A stretch of 64,000 nucleotides of DNA from an uncultured Alphaproteobacteria bacterium (GTDB taxonomy: Bacteria; Pseudomonadota; Alphaproteobacteria; Rhizobiales; Xanthobacteraceae). The translations under genes were made by a program, and so were the position numbers. The notes under the pieces are model-generated. The model was not told the DNA's origin and made no database searches. It was given only the letters and a program-made list of their open reading frames with translations. Shown here one piece after another: positions 51,782 through 55,910 of this stretch. Location: the NCBI GenBank assembly GCA_963779345.1, contig CAVZXY010000006.1:114057-178056 (forward strand), read 5' to 3'. Numbering within the stretch: the first letter of the stretch is position 1; every line of letters begins with the position of its first letter.

Positions 51782-53211
51782 CACTACTTTGGCAGATTCA
51801 TTCATACGGCGGCTCGGTGCCAATCCATCTTCTGCAGTGCGGGCAGCGCTGAGGTGGCAATCGACCGATGATCTCGACGATGGCGTGACGCACGGCCGGT
51901 AAGCTTGGTTGGGGCGGTGGCCCGTTGATTCTTTTTTTCCCGCTTCGCTTTTGCGAGGCGGCGATGCTGGAGGAAGGCATAAGCGATCATCGTCATGAGC
52001 GCGTGACGATGAAGGCCTTGCCAGGATCGTCCCTCGAAGTGGTCGAGGCCGAGTTCCTCTTTCAGTTGCTGATGGGCCTGTTCACAGATCCATCGCGCCT
52101 TGATCGTGGCAGCTAATGTGCGCAGGCCTGTTTTTGCCGATAGATTGGCCAGATAGTATTTCTTCTCTCCCGACATCCGCTGTTCGCCGATCAGCCAGGC
52201 CTCTTCGCCCGGCATGTGTTGTTGACCCATGTCCCTGATCCGCTGCGGAGGGCCGTCGGCGGTACGCACACGGACGGCGGCAAAGCGAGCTTTCAGCGGG
52301 CCCTTCGTGCCGTTTCGCCAGCTCACCGTTTGCCACTTGGCTTCGGCCAGCATGTCTTCGGCTGGCACGGACAGAATATCCGGGATGTGCCGCATACGGG
52401 GACGGCCGCGCGCGGCTTTTGGCCAGATAAGCTTCACCCCAACAGGGTAGACCTTGAGGTGACGCGGGATGCCAACCGCCCAGGCAAGGCTGCGAGCTGT
52501 GAGCGCCTGGCGGAACGGTGCGCTCAGTCCATAGCCGGCATCCGCCAGCACACAGCCGAAGCGCACACCGGCCGCCATCATGCGATCGATCTCGGCCAGA
52601 GCAATCTCCGGTTTTGTTCGTGCAGTTCGACGTTCGACCGGAACGCCCGCGCGTGCCAAACGCGCCGGATCGCTCGTCCAGTTATCGGGAAGGAACAGGC
52701 GTAGCGCTACCATCACCGGCACTTCGCCTCGCGCAAGCGTCAGCGACACCAGCGTTTGGCAGTTGGCGGTCTTGCCCAAGGCCGAAGCGTATTGCGGAGC
52801 GACACCGACCGAGTGCGTGCCCTTCTTCGGCATCGCCGTGTCGTCGATCACCAGCACGGCATCGTTGCCGCCGACGAGCCTGTCGGCCTGAACCAGCAAC
52901 TCCGCCTCCAACGGCGCCGCATCCCAGACGCCAGCAGCAACGAAATGATGCAACTGATCATAATCGCCAGGTGCAAACCGTTCCGCCATCGGCTGAACGC
53001 TCTTGCGATCGCCGGGACCAATAAGTCCCGCCACGTATAATGGACACATCAGGCGTCGTGCCTTGTGACCCAGCTTCTCGAGAAACGGAGACAGCCAAGT
53101 CCGTAATTCCGCATTCCAATTCTCGATCCGCGCCATGATCGTCACTCCGATTCAGTCGAACCGAAGCTCAAACCTAAATCCTTAACGCTTTATTAATCTG
53201 CCAAAGTAGTG
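51782..53211 (-). mobile_element. IS701-family insertion sequence
   Basis: 17-bp perfect IR CACTACTTTGGCAGATT; 4-bp target duplication CTAA (51778-51781, 53212-53215). Confidence 0.92.
51802..53145 (-). CDS. IS701 transposase
   Basis: IDDT..PKKG.HSVGV, ADAGYG, RWICE..K.ELGLDHFEGR. Confidence 0.95.
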   Translation of the reverse strand: MTIMARIENWNAELRTWLSPFLEKLGHKARRLMCPLYVAGLIGPGDRKSVQPMAERFAPGDYDQLHHFVAAGVWDAAPLEAELLVQADRLVGGNDAVLVIDDTAMPKKGTHSVGVAPQYASALGKTANCQTLVSLTLARGEVPVMVALRLFLPDNWTSDPARLARAGVPVERRTARTKPEIALAEIDRMMAAGVRFGCVLADAGYGLSAPFRQALTARSLAWAVGIPRHLKVYPVGVKLIWPKAARGRPRMRHIPDILSVPAEDMLAEAKWQTVSWRNGTKGPLKARFAAVRVRTADGPPQRIRDMGQQHMPGEEAWLIGEQRMSGEKKYYLANLSAKTGLRTLAATIKARWICEQAHQQLKEELGLDHFEGRSWQGLHRHALMTMIAYAFLQHRRLAKAKREKKNQRATAPTKLTGRASRHRRDHRSIATSALPALQKMDWHRAAV

Positions 53212-53371
53212 CTAAGATCATTGCATGCTGGGCCACCTCCGTTGGCGGCCCCGTTCGTTTGTTCGCGCTGACGAAAGTCCGCTATTGATGCTGTGGACGG
53301 CTCCTCCACCGGCACGTGAGTGCCATGAATGTGGGTGCTGCTAAGGCCCCCACAATTCGGAGGAGCTAAGT

Positions 53372-54403
53372 ATGCAAGCGATTACAACAATCGGTCTCGA
53401 TATCGCCAAGTCAGTATTCCAGGTTCACGGCGTCGATGCTGCTGGCCAAGTGGTTATCCGCCGTCGGTTGAAGCGCCGCTATGTTTTGGCGTTCTTCCAG
53501 AGGCTGCCGCCAAGCCTGGTCGGCATTGAAGCCTGTGCCTCATCGCACCATTGGTCGCGCGAGCTCAAAGCACTTGGCCACACAGTGCGGCTGATGCCGC
53601 CGGCCTACGTCAAGCCTTATGTGAAGCGGCAGAAGAACGATGCCACTGACGCTGAGGCGATCTGCGAAGCCGTCACCAGAGCCAGTATGCGGTTTGTGCC
53701 CACCAAGACGCCTGAGCAGCAGAGCTGCCTGATGCTTCATCGCACACGCCATCTGTTCATCCGCCAGCAGACTGCGGTGATCAACTCGATCCGCGCTCAC
53801 CTTGCCGAGCTCGGGATCGTCGCGCCGGTTGGCCGCAAAGGCGTCGAGGAACTGCTCCAAGTTATTGCCGATCCGAGCGACAAACGGGTGCCTGAGGTTG
53901 CCCGCGCGTGCCTTGCCGCACTCGGCTCTCAGCTGCGTAAGCTCAAGGAGCAGATTCTGGAGTTCGATCGGATGATCATGGCCTGGCACCGGTCCAATGA
54001 GGCGAGCAAGCGGCTCGATGTGATCCCCGGCGTCGGTCCGATGCTGGCCACCGCTCTGGTCGCCGGCGTCGCTGACCCAAAGGCCTTTCGATCAGGGCGC
54101 AACTTCTCGGCTTGGATCGGGCTGGTGCCGAAGCAACACTCAAGCGGAGGCAAGGACAGGCTCGGCAGTATCAGCAAACAAGGCGACCGCTATCTGCGCG
54201 GCCTGTTCGTGGCCGGCGCGCTCGCCGTCATCCGCTACGCCAAGATCCATGGCACCAAGCATCGGCCCTGGCTCACGGCATTGTTGGCTCGAAAGCCGAC
54301 CAAGGTTGCGGCCATCGCACTGGCCAACAAGCTCGCACGGATGGCCTGGGCCATGATGGCCAGAGGCGAGCGCTACAGGAATCCCGTCGCGCTTGCGGCG
54401 TGA
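53372..54403 (+). CDS. IS110 recombinase (DEDD RuvC-like + Tnp domain)
   Basis: GLDIAK, IEAC, KNDATDAEAI, GLVPKQHSSGG. Confidence 0.95.
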   Translation: MQAITTIGLDIAKSVFQVHGVDAAGQVVIRRRLKRRYVLAFFQRLPPSLVGIEACASSHHWSRELKALGHTVRLMPPAYVKPYVKRQKNDATDAEAICEAVTRASMRFVPTKTPEQQSCLMLHRTRHLFIRQQTAVINSIRAHLAELGIVAPVGRKGVEELLQVIADPSDKRVPEVARACLAALGSQLRKLKEQILEFDRMIMAWHRSNEASKRLDVIPGVGPMLATALVAGVADPKAFRSGRNFSAWIGLVPKQHSSGGKDRLGSISKQGDRYLRGLFVAGALAVIRYAKIHGTKHRPWLTALLARKPTKVAAIALANKLARMAWAMMARGERYRNPVALAA

Positions 54404-54459
54404 ACCGAGATCGCGTCGGCCATCCGGCGTGATGTGAAGGTTGGGAGGGCAAACAGCAC

Positions 54460-54630
54460 GTAATGCAGAGCCGGTCGATCCGGCGATCAGGACAACCCAC
54501 TAGTGCCATCGCATTCTTGAATGCGTGCTTTTGACCGGGACCTGATCCGCGGAGGGCATTATGGCCAGCGGCCTCATGTGCCGCGCTTAAAGGCCGAACA
54601 CATGGCTGCACCGACCAATGCTGCAAACGT
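54460..54630 (+). ncRNA. Predicted bridge/seek RNA of the IS1111 element
   Basis: Guide-like segments matching target (AGTGCCA, GCTTTTG) and donor (GCATTA, ACACATG) lie inside stem-loops; ends approximate. Confidence 0.7.
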
Positions 54631-54720
54631 GAAGAAAGCTCTTGCCAACTCGGAGCCGTCCACACATGGCACTTAGCGGAAGAAAAACCACCCGCGCCTC
54701 CCCAACGACTTCAACGGTGC

Positions 54721-54763
54721 AGAAGCACGAACGCGACGTGCAGTATTTCAAGCGACACTGACG
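54721..54763 (+). repeat. Diverged copy of the 3' end of 47426-47575 (KHERDVQYFKRH*)
   Basis: 37/43 nt identity; differences mostly synonymous. Confidence 0.85.
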
Positions 54764-54784
54764 CCGCTCGTCGGGGTCACGCCA

Positions 54785-55066
54785 TCACGAGTGTGAGAGG
54801 CGGCTGCTGTTAGCGTGCACGCAGCGGCGCAGCGGTGCATAGGCGCGTTCGGCGGCGACCATGATGGTCTCGCCGGCGAACAGTGCGTTGGCAAGCGCCA
54901 CTTCGGCGTCGGCAAAGGCCGCCACTTTTTCCGATACCATCAGGCGCGCTTCCACTTCGGCTTCGGGTCCGCCCTGCGCCAGGAACATCAGACGCATCGA
55001 GATGACGCCCTGCACCTCGCACGCAAACCGCACGGATTCGATCCAGGCATTCATTGATTCGAGCAC
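54785..55066 (-). CDS. Conserved-type rhizobial hypothetical protein
   Basis: GTG start after GGAGG; VISMRL...GG..EARLMVSEKVAA pattern. Confidence 0.65.
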   Translation of the reverse strand: MLESMNAWIESVRFACEVQGVISMRLMFLAQGGPEAEVEARLMVSEKVAAFADAEVALANALFAGETIMVAAERAYAPLRRCVHANSSRLSHS

Positions 55067-55292: not shown

Positions 55293-55910
55293 TCAAGCGG
55301 CGCTGCGCCTCGCCCCAGCCGCCTGCTCATATAGCTTGCGCATCTGCTGGCGCGCGTAAAACAGACGCGTTTTGATTGTGTTGGTCGGCACGCCGATGAT
55401 CTCGGCCACCTCGTTCACCGATTTCTCATGGTAGTACACGAGGTCGATAACCTCGCGATGCTTGGCGGGCAACTTGGTCAGGCATCCGCGCAGAACGGCA
55501 CCGGTGTCCTTCTTTTCGAGCGCAAGCTGAGAATCGTTCGCCTGATCGACGATCTCTTGCACCCCGGCGTCCTCGAGCGGCTCGTCCTGCCGCTGCTGCA
55601 TGACGGAGATCGCCTTGTAGCGCGCGATCGCCAGCACCCAGGTCGAGACCTTGCTGCGGTACTCGAAGCGGCCGGCCTGCCGCCACACTACGAAGAACAC
55701 TTCGCTGACGACATCCTCGGCTTTCGACGCGTCTTGGATGAGCCGCAAAACGAACCGGTACACCCGCACATTGTAGCGGTCGTAAAACGCCCGCATCGCC
55801 GACCGATCGCCAGCGGCAATACTGGCCAGCAAATCGCGGTCCGACTGTACCCGCTTTGCCGCTGGATGGCGGACGACGACGCCTTTTGTCTCAACATATG
55901 CCGTTTGCAC
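55293..55910 (-). CDS. ECF sigma-70 factor
   Basis: Region 2 AEDVVSEVF..VW, TWVLAIAR; region 4 EVAEIIGVPTNTIKTRL. Confidence 0.93.
   Translation of the reverse strand: MQTAYVETKGVVVRHPAAKRVQSDRDLLASIAAGDRSAMRAFYDRYNVRVYRFVLRLIQDASKAEDVVSEVFFVVWRQAGRFEYRSKVSTWVLAIARYKAISVMQQRQDEPLEDAGVQEIVDQANDSQLALEKKDTGAVLRGCLTKLPAKHREVIDLVYYHEKSVNEVAEIIGVPTNTIKTRLFYARQQMRKLYEQAAGARRSAA

What the first reader, a model, noticed from the sequence alone, without database searches (positions are those of the whole stretch)
53277..54680. IS1111 bridge/seek RNA with target and donor guides readable from sequence (TG core, hairpin target)
Seen: removing the element at a TG core restores the hairpin TCCGCTA-TTGGCACT-TAGCGGA. 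In the 3' non-coding region, stem GATCAGG/CCTGATC (54485-54491/54541-54547) encloses AGTGCCA (54502-54508, complement of the right target TGGCACT), then hairpin CGCATTC-TT-GAATGCG, then GCTTTTG (54527-54533, 6/7 match to the left target GCTATTG). A second loop has GCATTA (54556-54561, near-complement of donor TGATGC) and ACACATG (54598-54604, exact match to the element's right end). Established: IS110/IS1111 recombinases are RNA-guided. Inference: an intact, programmable recombinase ortholog aimed at a genomic palindromic repeat.
Basis: partly seen in the sequence, partly recalled or inferred. Interest (0 to 1): 0.7.

Follow-up and report, generated by a model that had tools for sequence, protein, structure and literature searches.

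The report
Intact IS1111 element with guide RNA
This is a complete IS1111-type insertion sequence whose own non-coding RNA carries short guides matching the DNA on both sides of its insertion site and its own ends; the reading is well verified, but the element is an ordinary new member of a family already known to be RNA-guided.

Summary
Window 53288-54668 is a 1381-bp IS1111-group element: 13-bp subterminal inverted repeats, an intact 343-aa DEDD transposase (D10/E53/D90/D93, S258 in GLVPKQHSSG; NCBIfam 'IS110 family RNA-guided transposase', 344 bits) and a 265-bp 3' non-coding region. It sits at a TG core in the loop of a palindrome (TCCGCTA-TTGGCACT-TAGCGGA).

Across 4 diverged paralogs in the same genome and about 70 relatives from other genomes, the guide in the first RNA loop tracks the right flank: 260 of 264 positions match, 0 of 5000 shuffles do as well, and there are five guide classes. 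The second guide tracks the left flank (257/340 against 189 expected). The right-end-like guide in the second loop tracks the element's right end in three classes. The RNA stems show compensatory changes (99% of cells paired, 9 covarying pairs).

Guide order is top-strand match 5' of bottom-strand match, as published for IS1111 seekRNAs. One or two bases beyond the bottom-strand guides match the recombinant junctions, like IS621 handshake guides.

Activity, the RNA itself and the circle junction are not shown. This is a new member of a known kind; interest is modest.

The parts
53278..53287 (+). Left half of the target (TCCGCTAT + core TG): left arm and 5' part of the loop of the interrupted palindrome
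   Evidence: Read directly. TG ends the left flank in 67 of 68 relatives.
53288..54668 (+). The insertion sequence, 1381 bp, with the second copy of the TG core counted at its right end
   Evidence: Ends ATGCTGTGGAC / CGTCCACACATG are conserved in 72 loci. Own-genome paralogs align end to end. Metagenome contigs break at 53285-53292 and 54670-54678 with differing flanks.
53292..53304 (+). Left subterminal inverted repeat TGTGGACGGCTCC, 4 nt in from the left end
   Evidence: Perfect 13-bp reverse complement of 54652-54664.
53372..54403 (+). Transposase gene, 343 aa, DEDD/RuvC-like N-terminal domain plus Tnp C-terminal domain
   Evidence: PF01548 and PF02371. NF033542 at 344 bits against a cutoff of 140. 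D10, E53, D90, D93 and S258 in GLVPKQHSSG. Distant hits to ISCro4 and IS621 structures.
54473..54616 (+). Core of the predicted long seek/bridge RNA, closed by GGTCG (54473-54477) pairing with CGACC (54612-54616)
   Evidence: Consensus fold of 66 sequences with one compensatory change in this stem. The transcript ends are not known.
54485..54547 (+). Target-binding stem-loop: stem GATCAGG/CCTGATC, CCC/GGG, and an internal loop holding the two target guides around a hairpin (54510-54525)
   Evidence: MFE fold. Compensatory changes occur in the stem (12 sequences A-U to G-C) and in the hairpin (7 and 12 sequences).
54502..54508 (+). Right-target guide AGTGCCA: pairs with the top strand of core TG + GCACT
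   Evidence: Across relatives the reverse complement of this column block matches flank positions r1-r4 at 260 of 264 (null 196.8 +/- 5.0; 0 of 5000 shuffles). Classes: GCAC, GCCC, ACCC, GGGG, GCGC.
54527..54534 (+). Left-target guide GCTTTTG, same sense as left flank GCTATTG and so pairing with its bottom strand, plus the following A, which equals the first base of the left end
   Evidence: Positions l5-l1 match at 257 of 340 (null 188.8 +/- 6.2; 0 of 5000). The following base is A in 64 of 71 elements.
54556..54561 (+). Donor guide GCATTA: pairs with the top strand of core + left end (TGATGC) with one G-U pair
   Evidence: Read directly. Guide and left end are both almost invariant, so there is no covariation test.
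54563..54595 (+). Stem GGCC/GGCC and inner hairpin GCGGC/GCCGC of the donor-binding loop
   Evidence: 24 sequences carry a compensatory U-A to C-G change in the inner hairpin.
54598..54606 (+). Donor guide ACACATG, same sense as the right end + core and so pairing with its bottom strand, plus GC, which equals the first two bases of the right flank
   Evidence: Guide and right end agree in three classes (CACATG, CACGTG, CACACG), with one exception among 66. The next two bases match flank r1 in 65 of 66 and r2 in 62 of 66, and match as TC in the distant relative L102.
54642..54647 (+). -35-like TTGCCA in the right end. It lies 17 nt from CATG|AT, a sequence that would form only at the circle junction.
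   Evidence: TTGCCA or TTGACA is conserved in all aligned relatives. The promoter reading is my inference, by analogy with junction promoters described in PMC11187229.
54652..54664 (+). Right subterminal inverted repeat GGAGCCGTCCACA
54669..54680 (+). Right half of the target (GCACT + TAGCGGA): 3' part of the loop and right arm of the palindrome
   Evidence: Read directly.

Best explanation
Window 53288-54668 is a structurally complete IS1111-group insertion sequence. It encodes a DEDD/serine recombinase (343 aa) and, in its 265-bp 3' non-coding region, a two-loop seek/bridge RNA.

First loop (54485-54547): AGUGCCA pairs with the top strand of the core TG plus the right target GCACU. After a hairpin, GCUUUUG pairs with the bottom strand of the left target plus core.

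Second loop (54556-54606): GCAUUA pairs with the top strand of core plus left end, and ACACAUG pairs with the bottom strand of right end plus core. Together these would hold the abutted ends of the excised circle.

The recombinase-RNA complex would then exchange strands at the TG core. That inserts the element, without a true target duplication, into the loop of a REP-like palindrome (consensus aTGTCCGCTTnTG|GCaCnnAGCGGACAT).

Shown here: anatomy, protein family, conserved RNA fold, and covariation of three of the four guides with their DNA partners.

Inferred from published work on ISEc11, ISPa11, ISKpn4 and IS621: that the RNA is made and bound, that a circle forms, the order of strand exchange, and that this copy is currently active.
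For: - **Strings and coordinates:** all verified.
- **Protein:** PF01548 + PF02371; NF033542 'IS110 family RNA-guided transposase' at 344 bits against a cutoff of 140. D10/E53/D90/D93 and the GL-P----SG motif with S258 are present in an uninterrupted 343-aa frame.
- **Ends:** 13-bp perfect subterminal inverted repeats. The long non-coding region lies downstream (265 bp against 84 bp upstream).
- **Paralogs in the same genome:** four diverged copies (84-68% identity) have guides that differ exactly where their flanks differ: GTGCCA with TG|GCAC, and GGGTCA with TG|ACCC.
- **Right-target guide in 66-68 relatives from other genomes:** r1-r4 match at 260 of 264, 0 of 5000 shuffles. There are five classes, and the tRNA-inserting variants match over up to 11 nt.
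- **Left-target guide:** 257 of 340 against 188.8 +/- 6.2 expected, 0 of 5000 shuffles.
- **Right-end-like guide:** matches the right end in three classes.
- **Tree on the transposase DNA:** the GCAC/GCCC guide state changes 5 times, and the flank follows in every independent pair (4 of 4). GGGG, ACCC and GCGC arise separately.
- **RNA fold:** 99.1% of cells paired, 9 pairs with compensatory change, 0 of 500 shuffles, and the signal collapses when partners are slid.
- **Guide order:** top-strand match 5' of bottom-strand match, overlapping at the core. This is the arrangement reported for IS1111 seekRNAs (PMC11187229).
- **Recent movement of relatives:** identical elements sit at two or three different palindrome sites within one genome (L007/L008, L009/L010, L021/L022, L044-L046).
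Against: - There is no direct evidence of RNA, circle or movement for this copy. Laid metagenome contigs gave no joints.
- The left-target guide has one mismatch to its present flank (6 of 7). The right-target guide stops matching after 7 nt.
- It is the only intact copy in a 77%-complete assembly. L002, L004 and L005 have broken frames, and L003 lacks its left end.
- No sigma-70-like promoter is found in the linear element.
- No Rfam family matches; this only means no such model reached threshold.
- The GCATTA guide cannot be tested by covariation.
- The sign test on independent tree pairs has too few pairs to be significant alone (p 0.125).
- Two relatives do not fit their guide at r1-r4: L047 (flank ACCC) and L065 (flank GCAA), both with a GCAC-type guide.
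Confidence: 0.93

Rival explanations
1. The design is RNA-guided as described, but this particular copy is a recently immobilised relic. It looks intact yet no longer excises or inserts, for example because it is transcribed too little or because of the mismatch between its left-target guide and its flank.
For: - It is a single copy of this variant in the assembly, and all four paralogs are degenerate.
- There is one mismatch in the left guide.
- No promoter-like site occurs in the linear form.
- No joints were seen in the laid contigs.
- Published work says flank matches are needed for excision (PMC11187229).
Against: - The frame, catalytic residues, both ends, both inverted repeats and all four guides are whole.
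- Relatives with identical elements at several sites tolerate one to three left-guide mismatches.
- The genome is only 77% complete, so further copies may be unassembled.
Confidence: 0.2
2. Target choice is made by the protein recognising the palindromic repeat. The short similarities between the 3' non-coding region and the flanks or ends are chance or shared descent, and the region is only a 3' UTR or terminator.
For: - Palindrome arms are conserved in the flanks beyond the guide footprint.
- The hairpin 54510-54525 followed by TGCTTTTG scores as terminator-like.
Against: - There are five right-guide classes and three right-end classes, each matched to its DNA partner, and no shuffle reaches the observed match.
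- Repeated switches on the tree occur with the flank following.
- Variants insert into a tRNA gene T-arm that is not the palindrome, with 10-11 nt guide matches.
- The stems covary while the guide loops vary.
Confidence: 0.02
3. The causality runs the other way. The guide-like segments are copies of junction sequence captured into the non-coding region, for example by recombination between the right junction and the internal ACACATGGC site, and they are carried passively.
For: - L055 carries a 63-bp tandem duplication bounded by the internal ACACATGGC and the right junction ACACATG|GC, so these two sites can recombine.
- The right-end-like guide continues 1-3 bases into flank sequence.
Against: - Capture cannot explain the right-target guide, which is the reverse complement of the flank and lies in a conserved internal loop.
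- It also cannot explain the left-target guide.
- Elements with identical guides sit at several sites whose variable positions differ, so the guides pre-date the insertions.
- A functional role for such segments has been shown experimentally in family members (PMC11187229).
Confidence: 0.03

Closest known systems
IS1111-family elements with demonstrated seekRNA: ISEc11, ISPa11, ISKpn4, ISPst6 (Siddiquee et al. 2024, PMC11187229)
   Same: - DEDD transposase of 330-350 aa with the GL-P----S/TG motif.
- Subterminal inverted repeats.
- Long non-coding region downstream of tnp.
- An RNA with a top-strand match 5' of a bottom-strand match, the two overlapping at the insertion point.
- No real target duplication.
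- A palindromic (REP-type) target, as for ISPa11.
- A predicted long RNA of about 145 nt and a target loop of about 63 nt, close to the reported long (145-170 nt) and short (70-100 nt) forms.
   Different: - The sequence is different and comes from a soil alphaproteobacterial lineage; the nearest relatives are Bradyrhizobium and uncultured Xanthobacteraceae-like MAGs.
- The target is different (TG core in GTCCGCT..TG|GCAC..AGCGGAC).
- Nothing here is experimentally tested.
IS621 / ISCro4 bridge RNA systems of the IS110 group (Durrant 2024 PMC11208160; Hiraizumi 2024 PMC11208158; PMC13626964)
   Same: - Two-loop RNA in which each loop has one guide for the top strand and one for the bottom strand on either side of a 2-nt core.
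- A recombinase with a DEDD RuvC-like domain and a catalytic serine in the Tnp domain.
- REP targeting.
- Bases next to two guides that match the recombinant junctions, like handshake guides.
   Different: - The RNA lies in the right end, downstream of tnp, not in the left end.
- Guide order within each loop is reversed in the element's own frame.
- The inverted repeats are long (13 bp) and subterminal.
- The core is TG, not CT.
- Protein similarity is only distant (E about 1e-8 over the C-terminal half).
REP-targeting IS110/IS1111 elements such as ISPpu9 and ISPa11 (PMC12288879; Tobes and Pareja 2006, as cited in PMC11208160)
   Same: Insertion at a fixed position inside repetitive extragenic palindromes, with several copies per genome in different palindrome copies.
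   Different: In this clade the guides have diversified along with loop variants of the palindrome family (GCAC, GCCC, ACCC, GGGG, GCGC), and some variants have moved to a tRNA gene.

Membership tests
IS1111 group of the IS110 family | DEDD (RuvC-like) transposase with the C-terminal Tnp domain (PF01548 + PF02371) | tested here: met
   E 3e-14 and 6e-24; NF033542, 344 bits against a cutoff of 140.
IS1111 group of the IS110 family | Catalytic D-E-D-D and the GL-P----S(T)G motif; transposase length 330-350 aa | tested here: met
   D10, E53, D90, D93; GLVPKQHSSG with S258; 343 aa. Criteria are taken from PMC11187229. Residue identification is by motif and by the HMMER alignment to ISCro4, not by structure.
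IS1111 group of the IS110 family | Subterminal inverted repeats of 7-17 bp with short terminal extensions | tested here: met
   13-bp perfect repeat at 53292-53304 and 54652-54664, 4 nt from the left end and 2 nt (+ TG) from the right end. Range criterion from PMC11208160.
IS1111 group of the IS110 family | The longer non-coding region lies downstream of tnp | tested here: met
   265 bp downstream against 84 bp upstream.
IS1111 group of the IS110 family | Sequence-specific insertion without a target duplication beyond the shared core | tested here: met
   The joined flanks give a perfect palindrome with one TG. 63 sites share a consensus. No uninterrupted orthologous site was found to confirm this independently.
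IS1111 group of the IS110 family | Phylogenetic placement of the transposase within the IS1111 clade of ISfinder entries | not tested
   No ISfinder sequences were available. The only solved structures hit are IS110-group proteins, at E about 1e-8.
seekRNA / bridge RNA-guided recombination | Non-coding RNA segments complementary to both strands of the target, overlapping at the insertion point, top-strand match 5' (IS1111 order) | tested here: met
   The order is as described in PMC11187229.
seekRNA / bridge RNA-guided recombination | Guides covary with target and donor sequences across relatives | tested here: met
   Right-target guide 260 of 264; left-target guide 257 of 340 against 189 expected; right-end guide in three classes. 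The left-end guide is untestable because it is invariant.
seekRNA / bridge RNA-guided recombination | Conserved secondary structure presenting the guides in internal loops | tested here: met
seekRNA / bridge RNA-guided recombination | The RNA is transcribed, binds the transposase and is required for circle formation and insertion | not testable with these tools
   The only trace is fragmentary metatranscriptome contigs of relatives over the non-coding region, which do not prove transcription.

The most novel reading that the evidence does not exclude
In this IS1111 clade the one to three bases 3' of the two bottom-strand guides behave as handshake guides. The bases after the right-end-like guide (GC here; ACC, GG and TC in other lineages) match the first bases of the right flank and change with it. 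The base(s) after the left-target guide (A, or AT) match the first bases of the left end.

Read in the flipped orientation, the IS1111 RNA has the same geometry as the IS621 bridge RNA, including a count of 1 base pair before exchange and 3 after. On that view the 'reversed guide order' of IS1111 would be an inversion of the gene-and-RNA module relative to the recombination site rather than a different mechanism. It would also mean that the strand exchanged first is the element's bottom strand.
Probability: 0.45. Interest if true: 0.4.

Novelty: new member of a known kind. Interest (0 to 1): 0.3.

Why it matters
The finding adds no new principle. RNA-guided target and donor recognition in IS110/IS1111 elements was published in 2024, and NCBI's own family model already names this protein an RNA-guided transposase.

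Its value is as a clean natural data set. One clade in soil alphaproteobacteria has at least five target-guide classes, three donor classes, retargeting from palindrome loops to a tRNA gene, and elements with identical guides at several imperfect sites. Together these indicate which positions are strict (core, r1-r4, l5, l3) and which tolerate mismatch (l1, l2, l4, r5 onwards).

That information helps in choosing and programming compact IS1111-type recombinases, which are less studied than IS621 and ISCro4. It could also test whether handshake guides exist in the IS1111 group.

Tried and rejected
- **Rfam.** A permissive scan of 53000-55000 gave no hit. This says nothing about function.
- **Promoter scan.** No promoter-like site in the linear element. 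The hairpin 54510-54525 scores as terminator-like, but it is the conserved loop hairpin.
- **Strict pattern for uninterrupted targets in the own genome.** Only 4 hits.
- **Scoring of ideal target sites.** No enrichment over a reversed-genome control.
- **Loose palindrome pattern.** Also no enrichment: 139 hits against 222 in the control.
- **Half-site count.** Only the half-site GCGGACAT is enriched, 134 against 38. The repeat family in this genome is therefore small and loop-diverse.
- **Orthologous empty site.** A search with the right flank in 40 relatives found that conservation starts 128 nt beyond the element and the contexts differ. No empty site was found.
- **Sequencing runs.** Only Logan contigs of soil metagenomes and one metatranscriptome were available. 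There were no joints, so neither a circle junction nor an excision product could be seen. Coverage of the non-coding region in the RNA library comes from 92-97%-identical relatives and does not prove transcription.
- **Pattern search in 400 family genomes for guides whose next base is not G.** 29 of 31 hits were chance matches in unrelated genes. Two were elements: one informative (L102) and one a deletion variant (L109).
- **Top-strand handshake positions in the element's own frame.** I looked at the bases after AGTGCCA and after GCATTA and found no consistent pattern.
- **Left-end hairpin.** GGCAC-GTGA-GTGCC contains AGTGCCAT, identical to the right-target guide. It stays the same in ACCC-class elements, so I rejected it as a target-related feature.
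Full report
**Observation.** All are at the stated coordinates.
- The flanks are TCCGCTATTG on the left and GCACTTAGCGGA on the right. Taking out 53288-54668, that is the element with one of the two TG copies, gives the palindrome TCCGCTA-TTGGCACT-TAGCGGA.
- The element begins ATGCTGTGGACGGCTCC and ends GGAGCCGTCCACACATG.
- It contains a perfect 13-bp subterminal inverted repeat at 53292-53304 and 54652-54664.

**Protein.** The only long frame inside is 53372-54403, 343 aa.
- It carries PF01548 (DEDD_Tnp_IS110) and PF02371 (Transposase_20).
- It scores 344 bits against NCBIfam NF033542, 'IS110 family RNA-guided transposase', whose cutoff is 140.
- The motifs expected for the family are present: D10, E53, D90 and D93, and GLVPKQHSSG with S258. 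The criteria come from PMC11187229 and PMC11208158.
- The nearest solved structures are the ISCro4 and IS621 transposases, at E about 1e-8 over the C-terminal half only. That fits a member outside the IS110 subgroup.
- The non-coding regions are 84 bp upstream and 265 bp downstream of the gene, which is the IS1111 arrangement.

**Paralogs in the same genome.** The assembly is 3.09 Mb in 24 contigs and 77% complete. It holds four further copies at 84, 76, 68 and 68% identity.
- Their right flanks fall into two groups. TG|GCACT occurs in the window copy and L002. TG|ACCC occurs in L003-L005.
- The segment aligned with AGTGCCA reads GTGCCA in the first group and GGGTCA in the second.
- The right end is ACACATG in the first group and ACACGTG in the second, and the internal ACACATG segment changes in the same way.
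- Only the window copy is whole. L002, L004 and L005 have broken frames, and L003 has a good frame but lacks the left terminus.

**Relatives elsewhere.** A protein-seeded scan of one genome per species returned 80 loci at 65-92% amino-acid identity. Most come from Bradyrhizobium and uncultured soil alphaproteobacteria, with some from Microvirga and Sphingomonas. Both ends could be located in 72 loci in all (68 of these 80 plus four own-genome copies). I aligned the last 225 nt plus flank and compared guide columns with flanks.

*Right-target guide.*
- The reverse complement matches flank positions r1-r4 at 260 of 264. Shuffling flanks among elements gives 196.8 +/- 5.0, and 0 of 5000 shuffles reach the observed value.
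- The classes are GCAC (33), GCCC (20), ACCC (5), GGGG (4, plus one GAGG) and GCGC (1).
- There are two misfits: L047 (flank ACCC) and L065 (flank GCAA), both with a GCAC-type guide.
- Position r5 is still significant, r6 is marginal, and r7 onwards is not.

*Left-target guide.*
- The five positions before the core match at 257 of 340, against 188.8 +/- 6.2 expected, with 0 of 5000 shuffles as good.
- Each position is individually above its null.
- l5 and l3 are the most conserved. l1 is the most tolerant.

*Right-end-like guide.* It equals the right end in three classes (CACATG, CACGTG, CACACG), with one exception in 66.

*Left-end guide.* GCATTA and the left end are both nearly invariant, so that pairing rests on complementarity alone: TGATGC against GCAUUA with one G-U pair.

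**Control for shared descent.** I built a tree from the transposase DNA, leaving out the non-coding region.
- The GCAC/GCCC guide state changes five times, and so does the flank state.
- In every independent pair (4 of 4 on supported branches) the flank goes the same way. That is too few pairs for the sign test alone (p 0.125).
- The GGGG class appears in at least three places on the tree. ACCC and GCGC each appear once, always with the matching flank.
- Elements with identical transposase DNA and identical guides lie at two or three different sites in one genome: L007/L008, L009/L010, L021/L022 and L044-L046. Those sites differ at l1, l2, l4, r5 and r6.
- This shows both recent movement of relatives and which positions tolerate mismatch. 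The window copy's single mismatch, at l2, is within that tolerance.

**RNA structure.**
- The consensus fold of 66 non-identical sequences has these helices:
  - an outer stem, GGTCG 54473-54477 with CGACC 54612-54616;
  - the target-loop stem plus CCC/GGG;
  - the loop hairpin at 54510-54525;
  - a GGCC/GGCC stem at 54563-54566 and 54592-54595;
  - an inner hairpin at 54568-54572 and 54580-54584.
- Counting pairs on that structure gives 99.1% of cells paired. Nine pairs have changes on both sides, in 63 cells, and 0 of 500 shuffles match this. The signal collapses when partners are slid by one to three columns.
- The guides sit in the unpaired strands of the two internal loops and vary while the stems are kept.
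- A local hairpin GCCGG-TCGAT-CCGGC (54470-54484) competes with the outer stem. L072 carries a change that keeps this hairpin paired, so the 5' boundary of the structure is uncertain.

**Comparison with the published mechanism.**
- Siddiquee et al. found that IS1111 elements carry the long non-coding region downstream. An RNA of 70-100 nt (long form 145-170 nt) co-purifies with the transposase. It holds a top-strand match 5' of a bottom-strand match, overlapping in the target. Both the RNA and target-derived flanks are needed for circle formation and insertion (PMC11187229).
- Durrant et al. predicted bridge RNAs in the right end of 93% of IS1111 entries (PMC11208160).
- The element here has exactly this layout, and the predicted lengths fit: 63 nt for the target stem-loop and 144 nt between the outer-stem ends. 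It is therefore a member of a known kind, and the mechanism I give is taken from those studies.

**A detail that goes slightly beyond them.**
- The bases just 3' of the right-end-like guide match the first bases of the right flank. r1 matches in 65 of 66 and r2 in 62 of 66.
- The pairs are GC with GC.. flanks, ACC with ACCC flanks, GG with GGGG in L033, and TC with TCCA in the distant element L102.
- Three GGGG-class elements keep GC, so r2 is not always followed.
- The base after the left-target guide is A in 64 of 71 elements (AT in 16), which equals the start of the left end.
- These bases would pair only with the recombinant junctions, not with the substrate each loop holds. That is the defining property of the handshake guides of IS621 (PMC11208158; PMC13626964).
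- If the IS1111 element is read in reverse complement, its 5' guides become bottom-strand binders and its 3' guides top-strand binders followed by handshake bases, as in IS621.
- By my count of the window copy, handshake base pairs number 1 before exchange and 3 after, the same numbers reported for wild-type IS621.
- This is my inference from a few independent lineages. I give it about 45%.

**Target.**
- Across 63 sites the flanks give the consensus aTGTCCGCTTtTG | GCaCatAGCGGacAT.
- The arms GTCC and GCGGAC are conserved at 62-89% although they lie outside the guide footprint; the guide match at l6 is only 16%. The sites are therefore copies of a palindromic repeat family.
- In the own genome the half-site GCGGACAT occurs 134 times against 38 in a reversed control. 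Individual copies with loops of the GCAC, GCCC, ACCC, GGGG and GCAA types can be seen.
- Stricter or looser whole-palindrome patterns were not enriched. The family is small and diverse here.
- Two relatives, L050 and L061, have instead inserted into what looks like the T-arm of a tRNA gene (flank GGGGTCAGGAGTTCGAATC), with 10-11 nt of guide match.

**Core.**
- TG ends the left flank in 67 of 68 elements and ends the element in most.
- In L033 and L039 the left junction has TG and the right junction CG. Their bottom-strand guides carry CG and their top-strand guides carry the complement of TG.
- A donor core CG recombining with a target core TG, with staggered exchange on either side of the core, would leave this pattern. 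I inferred this from the IS621 mechanism.

**Expression.**
- No sigma-70-like promoter is found in the linear element.
- The right end holds a conserved TTGCCA (TTGACA in several relatives) at 54642-54647. Joining the ends would place CATGAT 17 nt downstream.
- Junction promoters are described for this family, so this reading is plausible but untested. In the ACCC class a 3-nt deletion changes the spacing.

**What could not be shown.**
- No uninterrupted orthologous site was found in 40 relatives.
- The public runs that hold near-identical DNA are soil metagenomes kept as contigs. Contigs break at 53285-53292 and 54670-54678 and run on into differing sequence. That fits a mobile unit with these ends, but there are no joints.
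- Contigs from one soil metatranscriptome cover parts of the non-coding region at 92-97% identity. This is not proof of transcription.

**Verdict.** The element is a new, well-documented member of the IS1111 group with a seek/bridge RNA. Novelty is low and interest modest (0.3). The covariation data set and the possible handshake positions are the parts worth keeping.

Noticed in passing
window 51802-53145 (-): A 447-aa DDE transposase (PF13546 DDE_5, E 1e-87; IS701-like according to another first-stage note) ends about 140 bp to the left of the IS1111 element. The two unrelated IS lie side by side at the right edge of a putative island.
   Followed up: partly
L055:2741-2873: A relative carries a 63-bp tandem duplication bounded by the internal guide-coding ACACATGGC and the true right junction ACACATG|GC. 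The guide-coding DNA and the right junction seem to have recombined with each other.
   Followed up: partly
L074:2560-2790: A relative has lost most of the donor-binding loop. After GCATTATGGCCAG comes TGTGGACGGCTCC, which is the left-end inverted-repeat sequence. This suggests an internal rearrangement involving an end.
   Followed up: no
L050 and L061, flanks of the element: Two relatives are inserted at TG|GGGGTCAGGAGTTCGAATC, which looks like the variable-loop/T-arm part of a tRNA gene. Their guides match over 10-11 nt. This is natural retargeting away from the palindrome family.
   Followed up: partly
L033, L039 (and L048): The right end is ACACACG. In L033 and L039 the core is TG at the left junction and CG at the right junction. 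Their bottom-strand guides carry CG while their top-strand guides carry the complement of TG.
   Followed up: partly
L002 (G000:C2), about 110 nt left of the element: The left flank of this degenerate paralog is a T/C-rich low-complexity stretch instead of a palindrome arm, yet its left-target guide (GTTTTTG) resembles the flank (TTTATTG). It may be an assembly artefact or a secondary insertion.
   Followed up: no
window 53311-53324: A hairpin GGCAC-GTGA-GTGCC in the 5' untranslated part contains AGTGCCAT, identical to the right-target guide. It is kept unchanged in relatives with other guide classes, so it is probably a separate structural or regulatory element.
   Followed up: partly
window 54719-54761: A piece of about 40 nt just right of the element is found at 81-95% identity in at least eleven genomes of the same genus, in different contexts. 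It is a short dispersed repeat or a conserved gene end, and it overlaps the scar noted by another first-stage finding.
   Followed up: no
G000:C6:51614-51667 and G000:C18:234261-234292 (outside the window): There are solo fragments resembling the right end (57 nt, 77% identity) and the left end (32 nt, 88% identity) of the element. They are probably remnants of lost copies.
   Followed up: no
window 55293-55910 (-): An ECF-type sigma factor gene (Sigma70_r2, Sigma70_r4, Sigma70_ECF) lies about 600 bp to the right of the element.
   Followed up: partly
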